Below are positions 941-36,065 of a stretch of DNA of 60,968 bases, one piece after another. A model generated the notes under the pieces. It was not told where the DNA came from. It made no database searches and worked only from the letters and a program-made list of their open reading frames with translations. The DNA comes from a virus. Its lineage: Duplodnaviria > Caudoviricetes. Position 1 is the first letter of the stretch; each line of letters opens with the position of its first letter. The stretch spans positions 1 to 60,968 of IMG/VR virus record IMGVR_UViG_3300010296_000008; one strand, 5' to 3'. Made by a program: the position numbers and the translations under genes.

Positions 941-1378
941 ATGGCTGAATTATTAATTTCTGAAGTGCTCCAAAAAGTGAGCAATGCTAAAACTAAAGAA
1001 CAGAAGATCAAGATCCTTCGTGATAACAATTCCGAAGCCCTAAGGAAGATTCTTATCATCAACTTCGATCCTAGCATCGTGTCGAATCTTCCTGAAGGTG
1101 ATGTGCCTTTCAAACCAAACGAAGCTCCTGCTGGCACAGAGCATACCCGTCTCAGCACCGAGCATAAGATCCTCCACTACTTCGTGAAGGGTGGTGGCGA
1201 TAGTGTGCCTGCTCTGAAGCGTGAGACGATGTTTATGGGTCTCCTGGAGGGGTTACACGAGTCGGAAGCAGAGGTCGTCTGCCTCGCTAAAGACAAGAAC
1301 CTTAAGAAGAAATACAGGATCACCGAGAATGTCGTTAGAGAGGCATTCCCTAAGGTCCAGTGGGGAAACCGTCGCTAA
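941..1378 (+). CDS. Conserved T4-like phage hypothetical protein
   Basis: 145 aa with LPEGDVPF and KRETMF...LLEGLH motifs recalled from cyanomyovirus core hypotheticals. Confidence 0.8.
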   Translation: MAELLISEVLQKVSNAKTKEQKIKILRDNNSEALRKILIINFDPSIVSNLPEGDVPFKPNEAPAGTEHTRLSTEHKILHYFVKGGGDSVPALKRETMFMGLLEGLHESEAEVVCLAKDKNLKKKYRITENVVREAFPKVQWGNRR

Positions 1379-1394: not shown

Positions 1395-1416
1395 AGTTGT
1401 CGTCGCCTACATAATA

Positions 1417-1425
1417 TGGTATAAT
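1417..1425 (+). promoter_or_regulatory. Extended -10 promoter for the riboswitch leader
   Basis: TGGTATAAT ending 7 nt before the first CGTTC of the aptamer. Confidence 0.75.
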
Positions 1426-1432
1426 AACCATA

Positions 1433-1694
1433 CGTTCATCCTCCTCCCAGAGGAGGACGCAAGTAAGTCGCGGAACGGAGCGTTCATCCTATGTTATCAC
1501 TCGCTTTAATCTTTTTTAGTCACGTCCCACCTGAGGATTTCCTCAGATGTGAAGACTATGAATGGTTGAGGCAAGGTCTTGAGGAAACTCAATTGTTCAC
1601 CAGAGCAGAGAAGTTTGATCTTCTTGTGCATTGGATGAATCATACAGATCCTCATTGTTTTGATAGCAAGGACGCACACGACTGAAGGAACGGG
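1433..1694 (+). ncRNA. Tandem glutamine riboswitch (glnA / Downstream-peptide class) interrupted by an ORF
   Basis: Two CGTTCATCC starts (1433, 1481), two GGACGCA junctions, two GGAACGG ends; AGTA/GAA loop-E with AGTCG/CGACT pairing; lies upstream of a YRG peptide gene. Confidence 0.8.
1491..1685 (+). CDS. Small hypothetical protein nested in the riboswitch
   Basis: 64-aa ORF with GGAG at 1477-1480, hydrophobic N-terminus and two Cys. Confidence 0.65.
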   Translation: MLSLALIFFSHVPPEDFLRCEDYEWLRQGLEETQLFTRAEKFDLLVHWMNHTDPHCFDSKDAHD

Positions 1695-1727
1695 AATTAA
1701 CATTCTCATTTCTTTAGGAGTAATCCA

Positions 1728-1892
1728 ATGAACACACTTCAACTTATTCGCAATCAGATCAAGAAAGCAGCTGCTCTGCACGATGCACAAATTCTCCACA
1801 CTTCTTACCGTGGAGTCAAGTACGAGTGCAAGCAGGGAGTCGATGAAGTTCACGGCACCTTCTGCTATCGCGGTCACACTTACAATAAGTGA
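1728..1892 (+). CDS. DUF4278-family Downstream peptide, 54 aa (not in ORF track)
   Basis: AGGAG RBS; MNTLQLIRNQIKKAAALHDAQILHTSYRGVKY...FCYRGHTYNK with two YRG motifs. Confidence 0.88.
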   Translation: MNTLQLIRNQIKKAAALHDAQILHTSYRGVKYECKQGVDEVHGTFCYRGHTYNK

Positions 1893-1896
1893 ATCT

Positions 1897-1923
1897 AAGG
1901 AGGGTTGACACCCTCCTTTTTTT
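1897..1923 (+). terminator. Intrinsic terminator
   Basis: AAGGAGGGT-tgac-ACCCTCCTT hairpin followed by a T run. Confidence 0.85.
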
Positions 1924-1933
1924 GTGCTACTAT
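1905..1933 (+). promoter_or_regulatory. Sigma70-type promoter overlapping the terminator
   Basis: TTGACA-17 nt-TACTAT with extended TG. Confidence 0.7.
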
Positions 1934-8620: not shown

Positions 8621-8702
8621 GGGTAGGTGTCCGAGTGGTTAATGGAGGTGGACTGTAAATCCACTGGCTCTGCCTACGGGGGTTCAAATCCCTCCCTGCC
8701 CA
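8621..8702 (+). tRNA. tRNA-Tyr(GTA)
   Basis: Acceptor GGGTAGG/CCTGCCC, anticodon arm GTGGA-CTGTAAA-TCCAC, long variable arm, TTCAAAT T-loop. Confidence 0.95.
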
Positions 8703-8705
8703 CCT

Positions 8706-8792
8706 GGAGAGTTGTCCGAGTGGTTTAAGGAGCAGCACTGGAAATGCTGTATGGGGGTAACCTCATCTAGGGTTCAAATCCCTAACTCTCCG
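8706..8792 (+). tRNA. tRNA-Ser(GGA)
   Basis: Acceptor GGAGAGT/ACTCTCC, anticodon arm CAGCA-CTGGAAA-TGCTG, long variable arm. Confidence 0.95.
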
Positions 8793-8796
8793 CTCT

Positions 8797-8870
8797 GGGA
8801 CTGTAGTTCAACAGGTTAGAGCACCGCCCTGTCACGGCGGAAGTTGCGGGTTCGAATCCCGTCAGTCCCG
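8797..8870 (+). tRNA. tRNA-Asp(GTC)
   Basis: Acceptor GGGACTG/CAGTCCC, anticodon arm CCGCC-CTGTCAC-GGCGG, TTCGAAT T-loop. Confidence 0.96.
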
Positions 8871-8873
8871 CTT

Positions 8874-8947
8874 GCCACTCTAGCTCAGCTGGATAGAGCA
8901 ACGGTTTTGTAAACCGTAGGTCGTCGGTTCAAGTCCGACGAGTGGCT
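8874..8947 (+). tRNA. tRNA-Thr(TGT)
   Basis: Acceptor GCCACTC/GAGTGGC, anticodon arm ACGGT-TTTGTAA-ACCGT. Confidence 0.95.
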
Positions 8948-25208: not shown

Positions 25209-25293
25209 GCGAGTATGGCGGAATCGGTAGACGCACCAGACTTAAAATCTGTTGGGCATTGTGCCCGTGGGAGTTCAAGTCTCCCTACTCGCA
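25209..25293 (+). tRNA. tRNA-Leu(TAA)
   Basis: Acceptor GCGAGTA/TACTCGC, CTTAAAA anticodon loop, GGGCA..TGCCC variable arm. Confidence 0.93.
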
Positions 25294-27808: not shown

Positions 27809-27881
27809 TCCTCTATAGCTCAGTCGGTAGAGCGTCTGACTGTTAATCAGAATGTCCCTGGTTCGAGCCCAGGTGGAGGAG
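27809..27881 (+). tRNA. tRNA-Asn(GTT)
   Basis: Acceptor TCCTCTA/TGGAGGA, anticodon arm TCTGA-CTGTTAA-TCAGA, TTCGAGC T-loop. Confidence 0.95.
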
Positions 27882-35274: not shown

Positions 35275-36065
35275 TGGGAAAAAATCTAGCAGAAGTTCGC
35301 GGATTTAAAAATGCCGCGATTGGTACAATTATGGCGTGGACTGGGGGGAATGGCGACGTTCCCCACGGATGGATAGAATGTGATGGTGGTACGTATAGTA
35401 ATGATCAATATCCTCTGTTAAAAGAGGTTATTGGATACACGTATGGTGGATCTGATGCATCTAGTACATTTTCAGTTCCTAGCTTGAATAATGGTAAGGT
35501 GCCTTTTCATAAAGGAGGAACCTATAGCGGAACTGGTGGTACCAATAGTGGTAATGTTGGTTTGTATGCTGCCTGGAACGTAGACGGTAAACCAAACAAA
35601 ACAATCACATACGGTCAGTCGGCGTTCAGCAGCAGCTCTATGTGGTCTAAAACTGCATATGTGCAACCTAGGGTTATGTCCTTGGAGAATATGCCAGCAC
35701 ACGGACATAACGTTATCGTTAATAATGTTAATTCCCAGCACGGTGGTACTCCTAGTGCTGAAGAAGGTGGTACAAAATTTCAAACTGCTCGTACTGGTTT
35801 GAATACTGATGGTTTTCTAAGATATACTCCTAGAGTTGGTTGTCCTAACGATGATCAAAACAATCGATTTAGCGTTCCTTCTGGTGCACATAACCACAGC
35901 TCTATCTCATACTCTATGTCTGCTGGATCTTTAGGAGTTCCTCAATATTCTAACAATTATAATAGCGACAATATCTCCCTAAATAATAATCCAGGCTTAG
36001 GAAGTGCTGGTTTGGACTTTACTCCTCCTTATCAAACTGCGATATACATCATCAAAGCATTCTAA
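35274..36065 (+). CDS. Tail-collar short fibre protein
   Basis: IGTIMAW...P.GWIECDG...YPLL..VIG.TYGG...F.VP; HxH motifs; YIIKA end. Confidence 0.88.
   Translation: MGKNLAEVRGFKNAAIGTIMAWTGGNGDVPHGWIECDGGTYSNDQYPLLKEVIGYTYGGSDASSTFSVPSLNNGKVPFHKGGTYSGTGGTNSGNVGLYAAWNVDGKPNKTITYGQSAFSSSSMWSKTAYVQPRVMSLENMPAHGHNVIVNNVNSQHGGTPSAEEGGTKFQTARTGLNTDGFLRYTPRVGCPNDDQNNRFSVPSGAHNHSSISYSMSAGSLGVPQYSNNYNSDNISLNNNPGLGSAGLDFTPPYQTAIYIIKAF

What the first reader, a model, noticed from the sequence alone, without database searches (positions are those of the whole stretch)
1433..1694. Whole protein-coding gene enclosed inside a glutamine riboswitch fold
Seen: the second aptamer is split. Its 5' half CGTTCATCCT (1481-1490) runs straight into the ATG of a 64-codon ORF. 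Its 3' half AGGACGCACACGACTGAAGGAACGG (1669-1693) supplies that ORF's last codons and its TGA stop (1683-1685). Three long-range pairings bracket the ORF: TCCT-a-TGTTATCA (1487-1499) with TGATAGCA-AGGA (1661-1672), 12 bp including one G-U, covering the start codon; AGTCG (1466-1470) with CGACT (1679-1683), flanked by AGTA/GAA loop-E strands; and CGTTC with GAACG (1688-1692). Established: glnA and Downstream-peptide RNAs bind glutamine. Inference: the ORF is the ~160-nt loop of P2, so ligand-stabilised folding and translation of the nested ORF should be mutually exclusive. That would give a switch controlling both the nested protein and the downstream peptide. I do not recall this gene-in-aptamer architecture being described.
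Basis: partly seen in the sequence, partly recalled or inferred. Interest (0 to 1): 0.88.

Follow-up and report, generated by a model that had tools for sequence, protein, structure and literature searches.

The report
Phage gene nested inside glutamine riboswitch
A cyanophage carries two glutamine-sensing RNA folds nested one inside the other, with a real 64-codon gene sitting in a stem of the inner fold, a layout shared by hundreds of cyanophages and apparently not described before.

Summary
The sequence is as described, and the element is real and conserved. Window 1397-1926 is a self-contained cassette: promoter, double glutamine aptamer, 64-aa ORF (1491-1685), DUF4278/IF17-like ORF (1728-1892), terminator.

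The ORF sits in the loop of a 12-bp stem (1487-1499/1661-1672) and is under purifying selection (dN/dS 0.14; shifted frames 1.05 and 1.74).

Covariation shows a nested topology, not a tandem one:
- Outer P1 is 1433-37/1688-92.
- Shared P3 is 1466-70/1679-83.
- Inner CGUUC 1481-85 pairs with GAACG 1473-77 as a capped hairpin. Across 147 distinct modules this pair reads GC 104, CG 41, AU 2, with 0 unpaired. The tandem pairing is broken in 43 of them.

Natural ORF-less relatives score as one RF01739 aptamer (43.6 bits) with the inner unit inside P3.

The layout is modular. All 132 long inner stems and all 29 long outer stems hold an intact ORF. All 161 ORFs have exactly two Cys. All 159 downstream genes found carry YRG motifs.

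A covarying helix links the aptamer's 3' strand to the downstream ribosome-binding site. Glutamine binding and the reciprocal control of the two genes are inferred, not shown. I found no prior description in the papers I could search.

The parts
1397..1425 (+). Sigma-70-type promoter: TTGTCG, 17-nt spacer, TATAAT with TG before the -10 box. It places the transcript start a few nt before 1433.
   Evidence: 10 of 12 hexamer matches. The same TTGACx-17-TATAAT layout sits directly upstream of the first CGTTCA in related loci.
1416..1431 (+). Inverted repeat ATGGT/ACCAT with the -10 box in its loop.
   Evidence: Read. The arms differ but stay complementary in other loci, e.g. GGTC..GACC and GTGC..GCAC. 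The link to promoter-early stem-loops of T4-type phages is recalled, not tested.
1433..1437 (+). Outer P1 5' strand, CGUUC. It pairs with 1688-1692.
   Evidence: CGUUU here always occurs with AAACG at the 3' end (7 rows; 6 of 6 distinct cassettes). The MFE of 1432-1700 gives this pairing.
1439..1457 (+). Outer P2 hairpin: UCCUCCUC, loop CCA, GAGGAGGA.
   Evidence: The three base pairs checked covary: UA 126/AU 16/CG 3/GC 2; CG 137/UA 10; CG 116/AU 13/UA 13/GC 5.
1457..1465 (+). ACGCAAGUA: the outer unit's conserved ligand-pocket strand (CGCA) plus the 5' strand of the E-loop (AAGUA).
   Evidence: Aligns to aCGGAAGUA of the RF01739 consensus. The CGCAAGUA core is present in 76 of 76 parsed ORF64 cassettes, but the parse required it; within the cassettes only ACG was free to vary, and it reads ACG in 131 of 148 rows of A4, with the A covarying with the base of P2.
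1466..1470 (+). P3 5' strand, AGUCG. It pairs with 1679-1683, and the helix is shared by the outer and inner units.
   Evidence: Covariation. cmscan places P3 here in the ORF-less relative L108.
1473..1485 (+). Inner P1' hairpin: GAACG (1473-77), loop GAG (1478-80), CGUUC (1481-85). GGAG at 1477-80 is the likely Shine-Dalgarno sequence of the nested ORF, 10 nt before its ATG.
   Evidence: Pair 1473:1485 reads GC 104, CG 41, AU 2, unpaired 0 in 147 distinct modules. One search found 0 hits with only the 5' strand (1485) changed. GGAG is present in 98 of 132 cassettes with an inner ORF and 0 of 36 without.
1487..1499 (+). P2' 5' strand, UCCU-a-UGUUAUCA. It contains the start codon 1491-93.
1491..1685 (+). 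Nested gene of 64 aa (phrog_13397), a small two-Cys protein of unknown function.
   Evidence: (dN/dS 0.14). It is annotated as a CDS in four phage records.
1661..1672 (+). P2' 3' strand, UGAUAGCA-AGGA. It also encodes ..FDSKD.
1672..1678 (+). ACGCACA: the inner unit's conserved CGCA strand and its junction to P3.
   Evidence: ACGCA here in 165 of 168 unique cassettes; 2 have GCGCA and 1 has ACGCG.
1679..1683 (+). P3 3' strand, CGACU. Its U1683 begins the stop codon UGA.
1684..1693 (+). GAAG (3' strand of the E-loop), then the outer P1 3' strand GAACG (1688-92), then G1693.
   Evidence: Matches GAAGGAACG of the RF01739 consensus. Covariation.
1693..1708 (+). Small hairpin, GGGAAU-UAAC-AUUCUC, between the aptamer and the downstream ribosome-binding site.
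   Evidence: MFE fold. Arms differ among loci in the listing; this was not counted formally.
1710..1721 (+). UUUCUUUAG (1710-18) is complementary to CUGAAGGAA (1682-90). It overlaps the Shine-Dalgarno sequence AGGAG (1717-21) of the downstream gene.
   Evidence: The helix ends 5-9 nt before the ATG in 153 of 164 cassettes. The covariation is G1684 with C 58 or U 42, and A1684 with U 25 or C 0.
1728..1892 (+). Downstream gene of 54 aa with two YRG motifs (phrog_545); DUF4278/IF17-like.
   Evidence: (DUF4278, 21.9 bits, cut-off 25.3).
1897..1926 (+). Intrinsic-terminator-like hairpin followed by a T run.

Best explanation
Window 1397-1926 is an autonomous early-type cassette of a T4-like cyanophage. 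Its leader RNA is a nested pair of glutamine-riboswitch aptamers.

Outer unit. This is a complete type-1 (glnA) aptamer: P1 1433-37/1688-92, P2 1439-57, ACGCAAGUA, P3 1466-70/1679-83, then GAAG.

Inner unit. Inside P3 sits a second, circularly permuted aptamer core.
- Its P1' is capped by a triloop (1473-85).
- Its P2' is the 12-bp stem 1487-99/1661-72.
- Its CGCA strand is 1673-76.
- Its third helix is the same P3, seen from the other end.
- The 161-nt interior of P2' is almost all of a real gene. The gene encodes a 64-aa two-Cys protein.
- The gene's Shine-Dalgarno sequence lies in the P1' loop, its AUG in the P2' stem, and its stop codon at the P3/E-loop boundary.

Shown here: the sequence anatomy, the nested topology, selection on the protein, and the covarying alternative helix between the aptamer's 3' strand (1682-90) and the region overlapping the downstream Shine-Dalgarno sequence (1710-18).

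Inferred:
1. Both cores bind L-glutamine. Because they share P3, they fold as one unit with a single expression platform.
2. Bound glutamine holds 1682-92 in P3, the E-loop and P1. That frees the ribosome-binding site of the DUF4278/IF17-like gene, making it an ON switch like the cellular type-1 and type-2 switches.
3. The folded aptamer buries the nested gene's initiation region. Ribosomes translating the nested gene unwind P2', the CGCA strand, P3 and P1. The nested protein would therefore be made mainly from nascent or unfolded RNA, and the downstream protein from folded, glutamine-bound RNA.
For: Anatomy and conservation.

Nested topology:
- The inner closing pair 1473:1485 reads GC 104, CG 41, AU 2, with 0 unpaired, in 147 distinct modules. 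The same column paired tandem-wise (1437:1473) is unpaired in 43 of 147.
- A whole-collection scan for a change at 1485 alone gave 0 hits.
- 113 of 113 junctions that have aptamer context and a changed 1473 are compensated at 1485.
- Outer CGUUU always occurs with AAACG.
- P3 covaries.
- The unconstrained MFE of 1432-1700 is exactly the nested fold.
- RNAalifold on 26 ORF-less relatives gives the nested fold.
- cmscan on the ORF-less relative L108 gives one RF01739 hit of 43.6 bits (cut-off 35). Its P3 holds 38 nt, which is the inner unit. 6 of 16 further ORF-less loci give such spanning hits.

The gene is real:
- dN/dS is 0.14 in frame, against 1.05 and 1.74 in the shifted frames.
- 132 of 132 long inner stems and 29 of 29 long outer stems hold intact ORFs.
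- 161 of 161 ORFs have exactly two Cys, 31-40 residues apart.
- GGAG is present in the P1' loop only where an inner ORF exists (98 of 132 against 0 of 36).

Expression platform:
- The alternative helix is in the MFE fold.
- It is positioned 5-9 nt before the ATG in 153 of 164 cassettes.
- It covaries.

Downstream gene:
- 159 of 159 have YRG.
- 10 of 10 sampled hit DUF4278, 4 of them above the cut-off.

Published behaviour:
- Both glutamine riboswitch types act as ON switches, and DUF4278 proteins are IF17-like (Klahn 2018, PMC6212724, passages; Huang 2019, PMC6698751, passages).

Weak hint of expression:
- Contigs from 4 metatranscriptome libraries cover 1444-1731.
Against: - No ligand-binding or expression data exist for this element.
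- The window itself gives no glutamine hit at Rfam's gathering score. At relaxed threshold only the 5' unit scores, and it does so in a tandem-type alignment: RF01704 27.1 bits (cut-off 33) and RF01739 24.8 bits (cut-off 35).
- 3 of the 9 loci with RF01739 hits are aligned tandem-wise (second half only). Covariance-model scores alone therefore do not choose the topology.
- The covarying positions are one pair per helix. The C:G variants may descend from few events.
- The alignment used was enriched for variants by the design.
- In thermodynamic models the P2' stem over the AUG forms whether or not the outer aptamer does. Enforcing the nested fold does not clearly free the downstream Shine-Dalgarno sequence: P(unpaired) is 0.35 against 0.43, and for the AUG 0.49 against 0.23.
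- With the platform included, the alternative fold is about 11 kcal/mol more stable than the enforced nested fold.
- The GGAG association is confounded by lineage.
- The inner unit lacks the E-loop, and its triloop geometry may not allow the long-range C-G pair.
Confidence: 0.6

Rival explanations
1. Simple tandem. Aptamer 1 closes on itself (1433-37 with 1473-77). Aptamer 2 closes on itself (1481-85 with 1688-92) with the ORF in its P2 loop. AGUCG/CGACU forms only a bridge between them.
For: - cmscan aligns the 5' unit this way in the window.
- cmscan aligns the 3' unit this way in 3 loci.
- The MFE folds of short nascent transcripts and of 1431-1732 use 1433-37/1473-77.
- Tandem glutamine riboswitches are the published description (Weinberg 2010; Sherlock 2022; passages read).
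Against: - The closing pair of both tandem P1 helices is broken in every variant. 43 of 147 distinct modules are unpaired at 1437:1473, while 1473:1485 stays paired in 147 of 147.
- CGUUU occurs only with AAACG at the far 3' end.
- With P3 formed, the tandem version would need two crossing pseudoknots.
Confidence: 0.05
2. Both topologies are used. The tandem-type fold of the 5' unit forms first on the nascent RNA and may already sense glutamine. It later exchanges strands into the nested fold, and this exchange is part of the switch.
For: - All four P1 strands have the same sequence, so either partner is possible.
- MFE folds of transcripts ending at 1500, 1560 and 1655 show the tandem-type P1. 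The one ending at 1700 shows the nested fold.
- The 5' unit alone scores 27.1 bits on RF01704.
Against: - In 43 of 147 modules the tandem P1 has only 4 of its 5 pairs, so selection does not protect it.
- Nothing shows that the intermediate matters.
Confidence: 0.2
3. Only the outer aptamer senses glutamine. The inner aptamer-like unit is a structural scaffold, or a recombination module that shuffles small genes in and out. It binds no ligand.
For: - The inner unit lacks the AAGUA/GAAG E-loop.
- Its P1' is capped by only 3-5 nt.
- The units are modular. ORFs occur in the inner stem, the outer stem, both or neither: 113, 10, 19 and 26 of 168 unique cassettes. This is what recombination at the conserved flanks would give.
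Against: - The inner unit keeps CGUUCA, ACGCA and GGAACGG with only the compensated P1' changes, including in the 36 cassettes that have no inner ORF.
- These are the nucleotides that form the glutamine pocket in the solved type-2 structure (Huang 2019, passages).
Confidence: 0.2
4. The 64-codon frame is not translated. It stays open only because the RNA structure is conserved.
For: - No Pfam family.
- No structural relative: 0 Foldseek PDB hits at E <= 0.001.
- No protein-level data.
Against: - dN/dS is 0.14 in frame against 1.05 and 1.74 out of frame.
- 161 of 161 long inserts hold an intact ORF with exactly two Cys, despite very different nucleotide sequences.
- The AlphaFold model is confident in its core: pLDDT 91-95 over residues 21-50.
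- GGAG lies at a Shine-Dalgarno distance from the ATG.
Confidence: 0.03

Closest known systems
Type-1 glutamine riboswitch (glnA RNA, Rfam RF01739)
   Same: - The outer unit has every consensus element in order: CGUUC-A-P2-ACGnAAGUA-P3-GAAG-GAACG-G.
- It sits in the leader of a DUF4278 gene.
- ORF-less phage relatives reach the gathering score.
- An ON-switch platform that pairs the aptamer's 3' strand with the ribosome-binding site matches what Klahn 2018 postulates for gifB (passages).
   Different: - P3 is not a hairpin. It closes about 208 nt that hold a second aptamer core and a gene.
- The window's copy is invisible to the model at any threshold as one hit.
- It occurs in phages, whereas Klahn 2018 reports the switches as exclusive to cyanobacterial genomes (abstract).
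Tandem glutamine riboswitches (157 doublets and 4 triplets; Sherlock et al. 2022, PMC9481103)
   Same: Two aptamer cores lie in one leader. The phage doublets would probably be counted among these.
   Different: - They are described as pseudo-cooperative systems and listed under multiple expression platforms (passages).
- Here the units are nested, share P3 and have one platform.
- The words 'nested' and 'phage' have 0 occurrences in that paper.
Tandem glycine riboswitch
   Same: Two aptamers for one ligand interact physically and drive a single expression platform (recalled; title and abstract of PMC7161355 seen in the listing).
   Different: The glycine aptamers lie side by side and dock through tertiary contacts. 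They are not nested or permuted, and no gene lies inside them.
Type-2 glutamine riboswitch (Downstream-peptide motif, RF01704) and yfr6
   Same: - The same ligand-pocket nucleotides.
- It precedes short DUF4278 ORFs.
- yfr6 is an RNA first thought non-coding that holds a short ORF (Weinberg 2010; Klahn 2018).
   Different: There the ORF lies downstream of the aptamer, not inside a helix. The window's units score below the cut-off (27.1 bits against 33).
Structured RNAs that house ORFs in peripheral loops (group I and II introns with homing-endonuclease or maturase genes; tmRNA)
   Same: A conserved RNA fold closes around a protein-coding insert placed in a helix loop (recalled).
   Different: Those are ribozymes or a ribosome-rescue RNA, not ligand sensors. 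Here the start and stop codons lie in the functional strands of the sensor itself.
Circularly permuted RNAs (hammerhead types I-III, twister, two-piece tmRNA)
   Same: The same core occurs with different helices left open or capped (recalled).
   Different: I do not know of permutation being reported for a riboswitch aptamer nested in a copy of itself.

Membership tests
Type-1 glutamine riboswitch (RF01739) | P1 helix CGUUC/GAACG closing a three-way junction | tested here: met
   1433-37 pairs with 1688-92. Covariation is CGUUU/AAACG. The MFE of 1432-1700 gives this helix.
Type-1 glutamine riboswitch (RF01739) | P2 hairpin after a single A, followed by ACGnA | tested here: met
   A1438, P2 at 1439-57, ACGCA at 1457-61. 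The P2 pairs covary.
Type-1 glutamine riboswitch (RF01739) | E-loop strands AAGUA and GAAG flanking P3 | tested here: met
   AAGUA at 1461-65 and GAAG at 1684-87 flank AGUCG/CGACU. P3 covaries. In the relative L108 these align to the model consensus.
Type-1 glutamine riboswitch (RF01739) | Covariance-model score at or above the gathering cut-off (35 bits) | tested here: not met
   Window: no hit at the gathering score, and 24.8 bits for the 5' unit only. A likely cause is the roughly 208-nt P3 content. The ORF-less relatives L108 (43.6 bits) and 9 of 16 further loci do meet it. A search with the loop deleted could not be run.
Type-1 glutamine riboswitch (RF01739) | Selective binding of L-glutamine | not testable with these tools
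   Needs in-line probing or ITC.
Type-1 glutamine riboswitch (RF01739) | Leader of a nitrogen-related or DUF4278 gene | tested here: met
   ORF 1728-1892: DUF4278 at 21.9 bits, below the 25.3 cut-off. 159 of 159 downstream ORFs have YRG. 10 of 10 sampled hit DUF4278, 4 of them above the cut-off.
Type-2 glutamine riboswitch (RF01704) | Two hairpins with the GGAACG pseudoknot strand in the second loop; score at or above 33 bits | tested here: not met
   27.1 bits at 1430-1484, with the second hairpin poorly aligned.
Tandem pseudo-cooperative riboswitches | Independent aptamers, each closing on itself and each with its own expression platform | tested here: not met
   The tandem P1 closing pair is unpaired in 43 of 147 modules. 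There is one covarying platform helix, downstream of the whole element.
DUF4278 / IF17-like proteins (downstream ORF) | Pfam PF14105 match; repeated YRG motif | tested here: inconclusive
   The window's ORF scores 21.9 bits against a 25.3 cut-off, E 2.4e-4. It has two YRG motifs. Inhibition of glutamine synthetase was not tested.
Promoter-early stem-loop cassettes of T4-type phages (recalled: Arbiol et al. 2010) | Early sigma-70 promoter embedded in a stem-loop that flanks small shuffled genes | not tested
   The inverted repeat around TATAAT was seen. No comparison with the published motif was made.

The most novel reading that the evidence does not exclude
Cyanophages maintain a superfamily of small two-Cys protein genes that exist only inside the helices of glutamine-riboswitch aptamers.

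The nested, P3-sharing pair of aptamers would be a cooperative two-site glutamine sensor that works as a translational toggle:
- Unfolded or ribosome-occupied RNA makes the embedded protein.
- Glutamine-locked RNA silences the embedded protein and switches on an IF17-like inhibitor of host glutamine synthetase.

Translation of the embedded gene would in turn reset the sensor by unwinding its ligand pocket. The conserved aptamer halves would also serve as recombination sites that shuffle these genes between cassettes.
Probability: 0.3. Interest if true: 0.92.

Novelty: new variant of a known kind. Interest (0 to 1): 0.8.

Why it matters
Riboswitch aptamers are treated as compact non-coding domains that sit upstream of what they control. 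Three things here depart from that.

- A ligand-sensing fold is built around a gene, so sensing and translation of that gene compete for the same nucleotides.
- Two aptamers are nested through a shared helix, with one of them circularly permuted. That is a new way to couple two binding sites to one output.
- The layout is common in marine cyanomyoviruses. 366 GenBank phage records hold the junction.

Standard Rfam scans miss the window's copy (no glutamine hit at Rfam's gathering score), so such gene-bearing copies may be under-annotated and their small genes are listed only as hypothetical proteins.

The cassette also puts an IF17-like protein, a possible inhibitor of host glutamine synthetase, under glutamine control in a virus. 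That bears on how cyanophages manage host nitrogen metabolism.

All of this is directly testable with short RNAs and reporter fusions.

Tried and rejected
1. Rfam at gathering score on the whole window found only 6 tRNAs. At relaxed threshold the 3' half alone gave only a spurious snoRNA match, sR30 at 11 bits.

2. Joined sequence may not be typed into tools, and Infernal is not in the script box. Natural ORF-less relatives served instead.

3. Function of the 64-aa protein:
- Pfam gave no family.
- PHROGs families are all of unknown function.
- 58 homologous clusters are all unnamed or 'hypothetical'.
- Foldseek against the PDB gave 0 hits at E <= 0.001.
- ESM Atlas gave best scores of 0.75-0.78, all 'hypothetical protein'.
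- A lipoprotein or signal-peptide reading was rejected. The hydrophobic stretch before the first Cys is short, and 156 of 161 ORFs have no K or R in the first 10 residues.

4. Accessibility modelling did not show clear ligand-state-dependent exposure of either ribosome-binding site.

5. The antisense ORF 1506-1877 (123 aa) was rejected. It spans the conserved RNA strands and an intergenic stretch that has 1-nt indels among relatives. Its own dN/dS was not computed.

6. The genome-contig scan gave 49 stretches.
- 12 have aptamer context. They lie on phage-sized or short contigs of MAGs, SAGs and one Nonlabens assembly.
- The other 37 look like chance matches.
- No clear case on a cyanobacterial chromosome was found. 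The exact pattern used limits this result.

7. Read laying. The stretches 1300-1371 and beyond 1900 had little or no cover in the four RNA-library runs. Contig data cannot show transcript ends, and DNA may be present in such libraries, so this is not used as evidence.

8. Other copies in the window: none. The second GAAGGAACG, at 35873 on the minus strand, has no partner motifs.

10. Papers and supplements not seen:
- Ames & Breaker 2011 was not held under the two ids tried.
- A search for Ren et al. 2015 did not return it.
- Supplements of Weinberg 2010 and Klahn 2018 could not be seen.
- Any of these might already note nesting within P3.
Full report
**What is in the sequence**

- CGTTCATCCT is at 1481-1490 and runs into ATG 1491.
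- The frame 1491-1685 has 64 codons.
- AGGACGCACACGACTGAAGGAACGG is at 1669-1693, with TGA at 1683-1685.
- An unbroken first unit lies upstream: CGUUC 1433-37, A1438, hairpin 1439-57, ACGCAAGUA 1457-65, AGUCG 1466-70, C, G, GAACG 1473-77.

A sigma-70-type promoter (TTGTCG-17-TATAAT, 1397-1425) ends a few bases before 1433. A terminator-like hairpin with a T run follows the next small ORF, at 1897-1918. The unit is therefore a self-contained cassette: promoter, structured leader with the 64-codon ORF, a 54-codon ORF (1728-1892), terminator.

The window is from a T4-like cyanomyovirus. Its nearest database relatives over this stretch are Synechococcus phages S-H9-1, S-RSM4, S-RIM8 and S-RIM50.

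**Rfam scans**

At gathering scores the window shows only six tRNAs. At relaxed threshold only the first unit scores:
- RF01704: 27.1 bits (cut-off 33), E 7.7e-5.
- RF01739: 24.8 bits (cut-off 35), E 0.003.

Nothing covers the split unit. This is expected if a helix holds about 180-210 extra bases.

**Conservation**

The same arrangement is present in four isolate genomes, in different neighbourhoods. In S-RIM8 and S-RIM50 it follows nrdB. The 195-nt and 165-nt ORFs are annotated there as hypothetical proteins.
- A tblastn-based scan of IMG/VR found 191 stretches encoding a relative of the 64-aa protein; 80 were fetched.
- In 366 GenBank phage records part of 1432-1700 is found. In 41 of them at least 80% is found. 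All are Synechococcus or Prochlorococcus phages.

**The architecture is modular**

I parsed 184 complete cassettes, 168 of them unique. Every one reads as follows: CGUUCA, P2, ACGCAAGUA, P3 5' strand, C, GGAACG, a loop of 3-5 nt, CGUUCA, P2', ACGCA(A/C)A, P3 3' strand, (G/A)AAG, GAACG, G.

Either P2, or P2', or both, or neither is long.
- 132 unique cassettes have a long inner P2'. All 132 hold an intact ORF of 49-69 aa. Its ATG starts 3-5 nt into the stem in 130, and at offset 4 in 116.
- 29 have a long outer P2. All 29 hold an ORF of 59-75 aa.
- 19 have both, and 26 have neither.

In 119 of 132 inner ORFs the stop codon is the UGA or UAA formed at the boundary of P3 and the E-loop, so the last residues (D-A-N/H-D) are encoded by the aptamer's conserved strands. 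In 10 the stop lies just before ACGCA.

It is a recurrent design.

**Topology: nested, not tandem**

All four P1 strands have the same sequence, so only variants can decide.
- Among the 184 parsed cassettes, 177 are all-consensus. Five read CGUUC/CAACG/CGUUG/GAACG, one reads CGUUU/CAACG/CGUUG/AAACG, and one reads CGUUC/AAACG/CGUUU/GAACG.
- A dedicated scan for a changed 1473 gave at least 120 stretches.
- The complementary scan, with G kept at 1473 and C changed at 1485, gave 0.
- Of 122 junction matches with a changed 1473, 113 have aptamer context. All 113 are compensated at 1485: 109 as C:G and 4 as A:U. The other 9 have no aptamer context and are chance matches.
- On an alignment of all 147 distinct 5' modules with a short P2, the pair 1473:1485 is GC 104, CG 41, AU 2, unpaired 0. 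The same column paired tandem-wise with 1437 is unpaired in 43 of 147. This set was enriched for variants, so the variant frequency in it means nothing. The compensation is what counts.
- Where the far 3' strand is AAACG, the first strand is CGUUU: 7 rows, and 6 of 6 distinct cassettes.

Hence 1473-77 pairs with 1481-85 as a capped hairpin, and 1433-37 pairs with 1688-92.

Independent support:
- The unconstrained MFE of 1432-1700 is exactly this nested fold.
- RNAalifold on 26 ORF-less natural relatives predicts it.
- cmscan on the ORF-less relative L108 returns a single RF01739 hit of 43.6 bits spanning 87 nt, with 38 nt (the inner unit) inside P3.
- Of 16 further ORF-less loci, 9 reach the RF01739 cut-off. 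Six do so with a hit spanning the whole pair, and 3 with a hit on the second half only. Model scores alone therefore do not settle the topology; covariation does.

**P3**

- Variants include AGUCA/UGACU, GGUCG/CGACU, AGUCG/CGGCU and AGUCG/CGAUU.
- There is an 8-bp form, AGCCGACU/AGCCGACU, with two A.C oppositions, and its variant AGCCGACA/UGCCGACU.
- There is GGACGG/CCGCCC, and its fully paired variant GGAAGG/CCUUCC.

**Reading of the anatomy**

The outer unit has every element of the type-1 (glnA) consensus.

The inner unit has the same order of elements if read as a circle. P1' 5' strand, A, P2', ACGCA, then P3 going out. Then P3 coming back, C-G, P1' 3' strand, a short loop, and back to the start. 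It is a circularly permuted core whose third helix is the outer unit's P3 seen from the other end. Two short junction strands stand in place of the E-loop.

Both units keep CGUUCA, CGCA and GGAACGG. These are the nucleotides that build the glutamine site in the solved type-2 structure, including the long-range C-G pair (Huang 2019, PMC6698751, passages read). Whether the inner site binds ligand is inference.

**The long stem around the ORF**

UCCU-a-UGUUAUCA (1487-99) pairs with UGAUAGCA-AGGA (1661-72). This stem is in the MFE folds.

| ORF set | n | Real insert ends (kcal/mol) | 5' end vs internal windows | 5' end vs shuffled 3' end |
|---|---|---|---|---|
| Inner ORFs, this family | 56 | -12.0 | -3.4 | -6.5 |
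| Inner ORFs, other families | 76 | -10.4 | -3.5 | -7.8 |

- Variants co-vary in part. AUGCUU mostly occurs with GAAGCA.
- One relative with an unrelated C-terminus pairs over 11 bp at -15.3 kcal/mol.

**The ORF is a gene**

Pairwise dN/dS over 47 unique sequences is 0.14 for codons 5-54, with dS 0.88. The two shifted frames give 1.05 and 1.74.

All 161 embedded ORFs share these features:
- exactly two Cys, 31-40 residues apart;
- a hydrophobic N-terminus, with 156 of 161 having no K or R in the first ten residues;
- 160 of 161 join one cluster by single-linkage BLASTP.

They fall into phrog_13397, phrog_504, phrog_6471 and unassigned groups, all of unknown function.

The AlphaFold model of the window's protein has mean pLDDT 78.9, with two confident helices at 20-32 and 38-49. 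It has no significant PDB neighbour.

GGAG, formed by the last G of GAACG plus a GAG loop, sits 10 nt before the ATG. It is present in 98 of 132 cassettes with an inner ORF and 0 of 36 without (Fisher 1.8e-17, confounded by lineage).

ORFs in the outer stem start about 10 nt after the first CGUUCA. They therefore have very short leaders without a Shine-Dalgarno sequence.

**Expression platform of the downstream gene**

CUGAAGGAA (1682-90) comprises the end of P3, the E-loop strand and the start of P1. It is complementary to UUUCUUUAG (1710-18), which overlaps the Shine-Dalgarno sequence AGGAG (1717-21).
- The helix is in the MFE of 1431-1732.
- In 164 of 168 unique cassettes with a recognisable downstream start, the best duplex between the aptamer's last 14 nt and the spacer ends 5-9 nt before the ATG in 153. 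Its mean is -7.95 kcal/mol, against -5.3 for shuffled spacers, a modest z of -1.4.
- It covaries. With GAAG, the opposing base is C (58) or U (42). With AAAG, it is U (25) and never C (0).
- Cassettes whose P3 ends in CC have UUUGGAG in place of UUUAGGAG (11).

Every downstream ORF found (159 of 168 cassettes) is 38-62 aa with a YRG motif, and 156 have two. Ten sampled all match DUF4278, 4 of them above Pfam's cut-off. The window's own scores 21.9 bits against a cut-off of 25.3.

Klahn et al. 2018 (PMC6212724; abstract and passages read) make three relevant points.
- They show that both glutamine riboswitch types raise protein synthesis when glutamine binds.
- They say that DUF4278 marks the glutamine-synthetase inactivating factor IF17 and IF17-like proteins.
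- They postulate that ligand binding melts a duplex that blocks the ribosome-binding site.

The phage platform fits that scheme.

**Limits of the mechanism**

Thermodynamic modelling gave mixed results.
- With the platform included, the alternative fold is about 11 kcal/mol more stable than the enforced nested fold.
- Enforcing the nested fold does not clearly expose the downstream Shine-Dalgarno sequence (0.35 against 0.43 unpaired). The ATG goes from 0.23 to 0.49.
- The P2' stem over the nested ATG forms in all full-length models. In a nascent transcript ending at 1560, the ATG is 0.81 unpaired.

The most defensible model for the nested gene is therefore kinetic. It is initiated on nascent or ribosome-opened RNA and shut by folding. 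Glutamine would add stability to the closed state. Ribosomes finishing the nested ORF must unwind the CGCA strand, P3, the E-loop and P1. All of this is inference.

**Expression hint**

Contigs from four metatranscriptome libraries cover 1444-1731 with very high summed word depth. Some contigs join about 1479-1499 directly to about 1670, which is the form of ORF-less relatives. These are contigs from mixed communities, and DNA can be present in such libraries. This is a weak hint only.

**Distribution outside phages**

One exact-pattern scan of 185,579 prokaryote genomes gave 49 stretches.
- 12 have aptamer context. All 12 lie on phage-sized contigs (189-194 kb, in a Prochlorococcus SAG, a Synechococcus MAG and a Nonlabens assembly) or on other MAG/SAG contigs of 1.7-31 kb.
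- I saw no clear chromosomal cyanobacterial case. The pattern was narrow.

**Literature**

| Paper | What I read | What it says |
|---|---|---|
| Sherlock 2022 (PMC9481103) | passages, | 157 doublets and 4 triplets, treated as pseudo-cooperative; 'nested' and 'phage' each occur 0 times. |
| Klahn 2018 (PMC6212724) | passages, | 'phage' occurs 0 times. |
| Two cyanophage genome papers | passages, | They only list the glutamine riboswitch among cyanophage non-coding RNAs. |
| A methylophage paper | passages, | Discusses a phage glutamine riboswitch beside a tmRNA. |

Searches turned up no description of a gene inside the aptamer or of nesting in P3.

Not seen:
- Ames & Breaker 2011 (not held under the ids tried).
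- Ren et al. 2015 (not returned by the search).
- All supplements.

**Verdict**

The interpretation needs one structural correction, nested rather than tandem. Its regulatory part remains a hypothesis.

Noticed in passing
window 1416-1431; also upstream of the cassettes in L005-L204: The -10 box TATAAT sits in the loop of a short inverted repeat (ATGGT..ACCAT here). Its arms differ between loci but stay complementary, e.g. GGTC..GACC, GTGC..GCAC, GGGTA..TACCC. This resembles the promoter-early stem-loops said to shuffle small genes in T4-type phages; that link is recalled, not checked.
   Followed up: partly
window 1905-1933: A second promoter-like site (TTGACA-17-TACTAT) overlaps the terminator hairpin of the cassette. 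One stem-loop may therefore end one unit and start the next.
   Followed up: no
window 1728-1892 and 159 related loci: Cyanophages carry small proteins with two YRG motifs (DUF4278, IF17-like) behind the riboswitch. This implies a phage-encoded candidate inhibitor of host glutamine synthetase.
   Followed up: partly
L074:350-810: One cassette holds two embedded paralogous two-Cys ORFs, one in each aptamer's stem. The second is of the window's family.
   Followed up: yes
L076:580-900 (also L078, L081, L083, L114): Here the window's ORF family sits in the outer stem instead. The inner stem is a plain hairpin (UUCGCUAUU..AAUAGCGAA) and P3 is GGACGACG/CGCCGCCC.
   Followed up: yes
L050:790-1200: The 3' end of this cassette is altered (GAACA; repeated CTGAAGGAA). 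A further CGTTCATCC unit follows, ahead of a longer Cys-rich ORF.
   Followed up: no
window 8621-8947, 25209-25293, 27809-27881: Six tRNA genes, four of them in a tight cluster.
   Followed up: no
window 941-1378: The gene just upstream of the cassette encodes a DUF6433 protein (E 6.4e-51; phrog_461).
   Followed up: no
L111:1640-1839: A manA RNA (RF01745, 160.9 bits) lies on the same viral contig as one ORF-less double aptamer.
   Followed up: no
P3 of class-2 and class-3 cassettes, e.g. L121, L109: The longer P3 variants keep A.C or C.A oppositions at fixed positions (third and sixth pair). In a few variants these become standard pairs: A-U in GGAAGG/CCUUCC and in AGCCGACU/AGUUGACU.
   Followed up: partly
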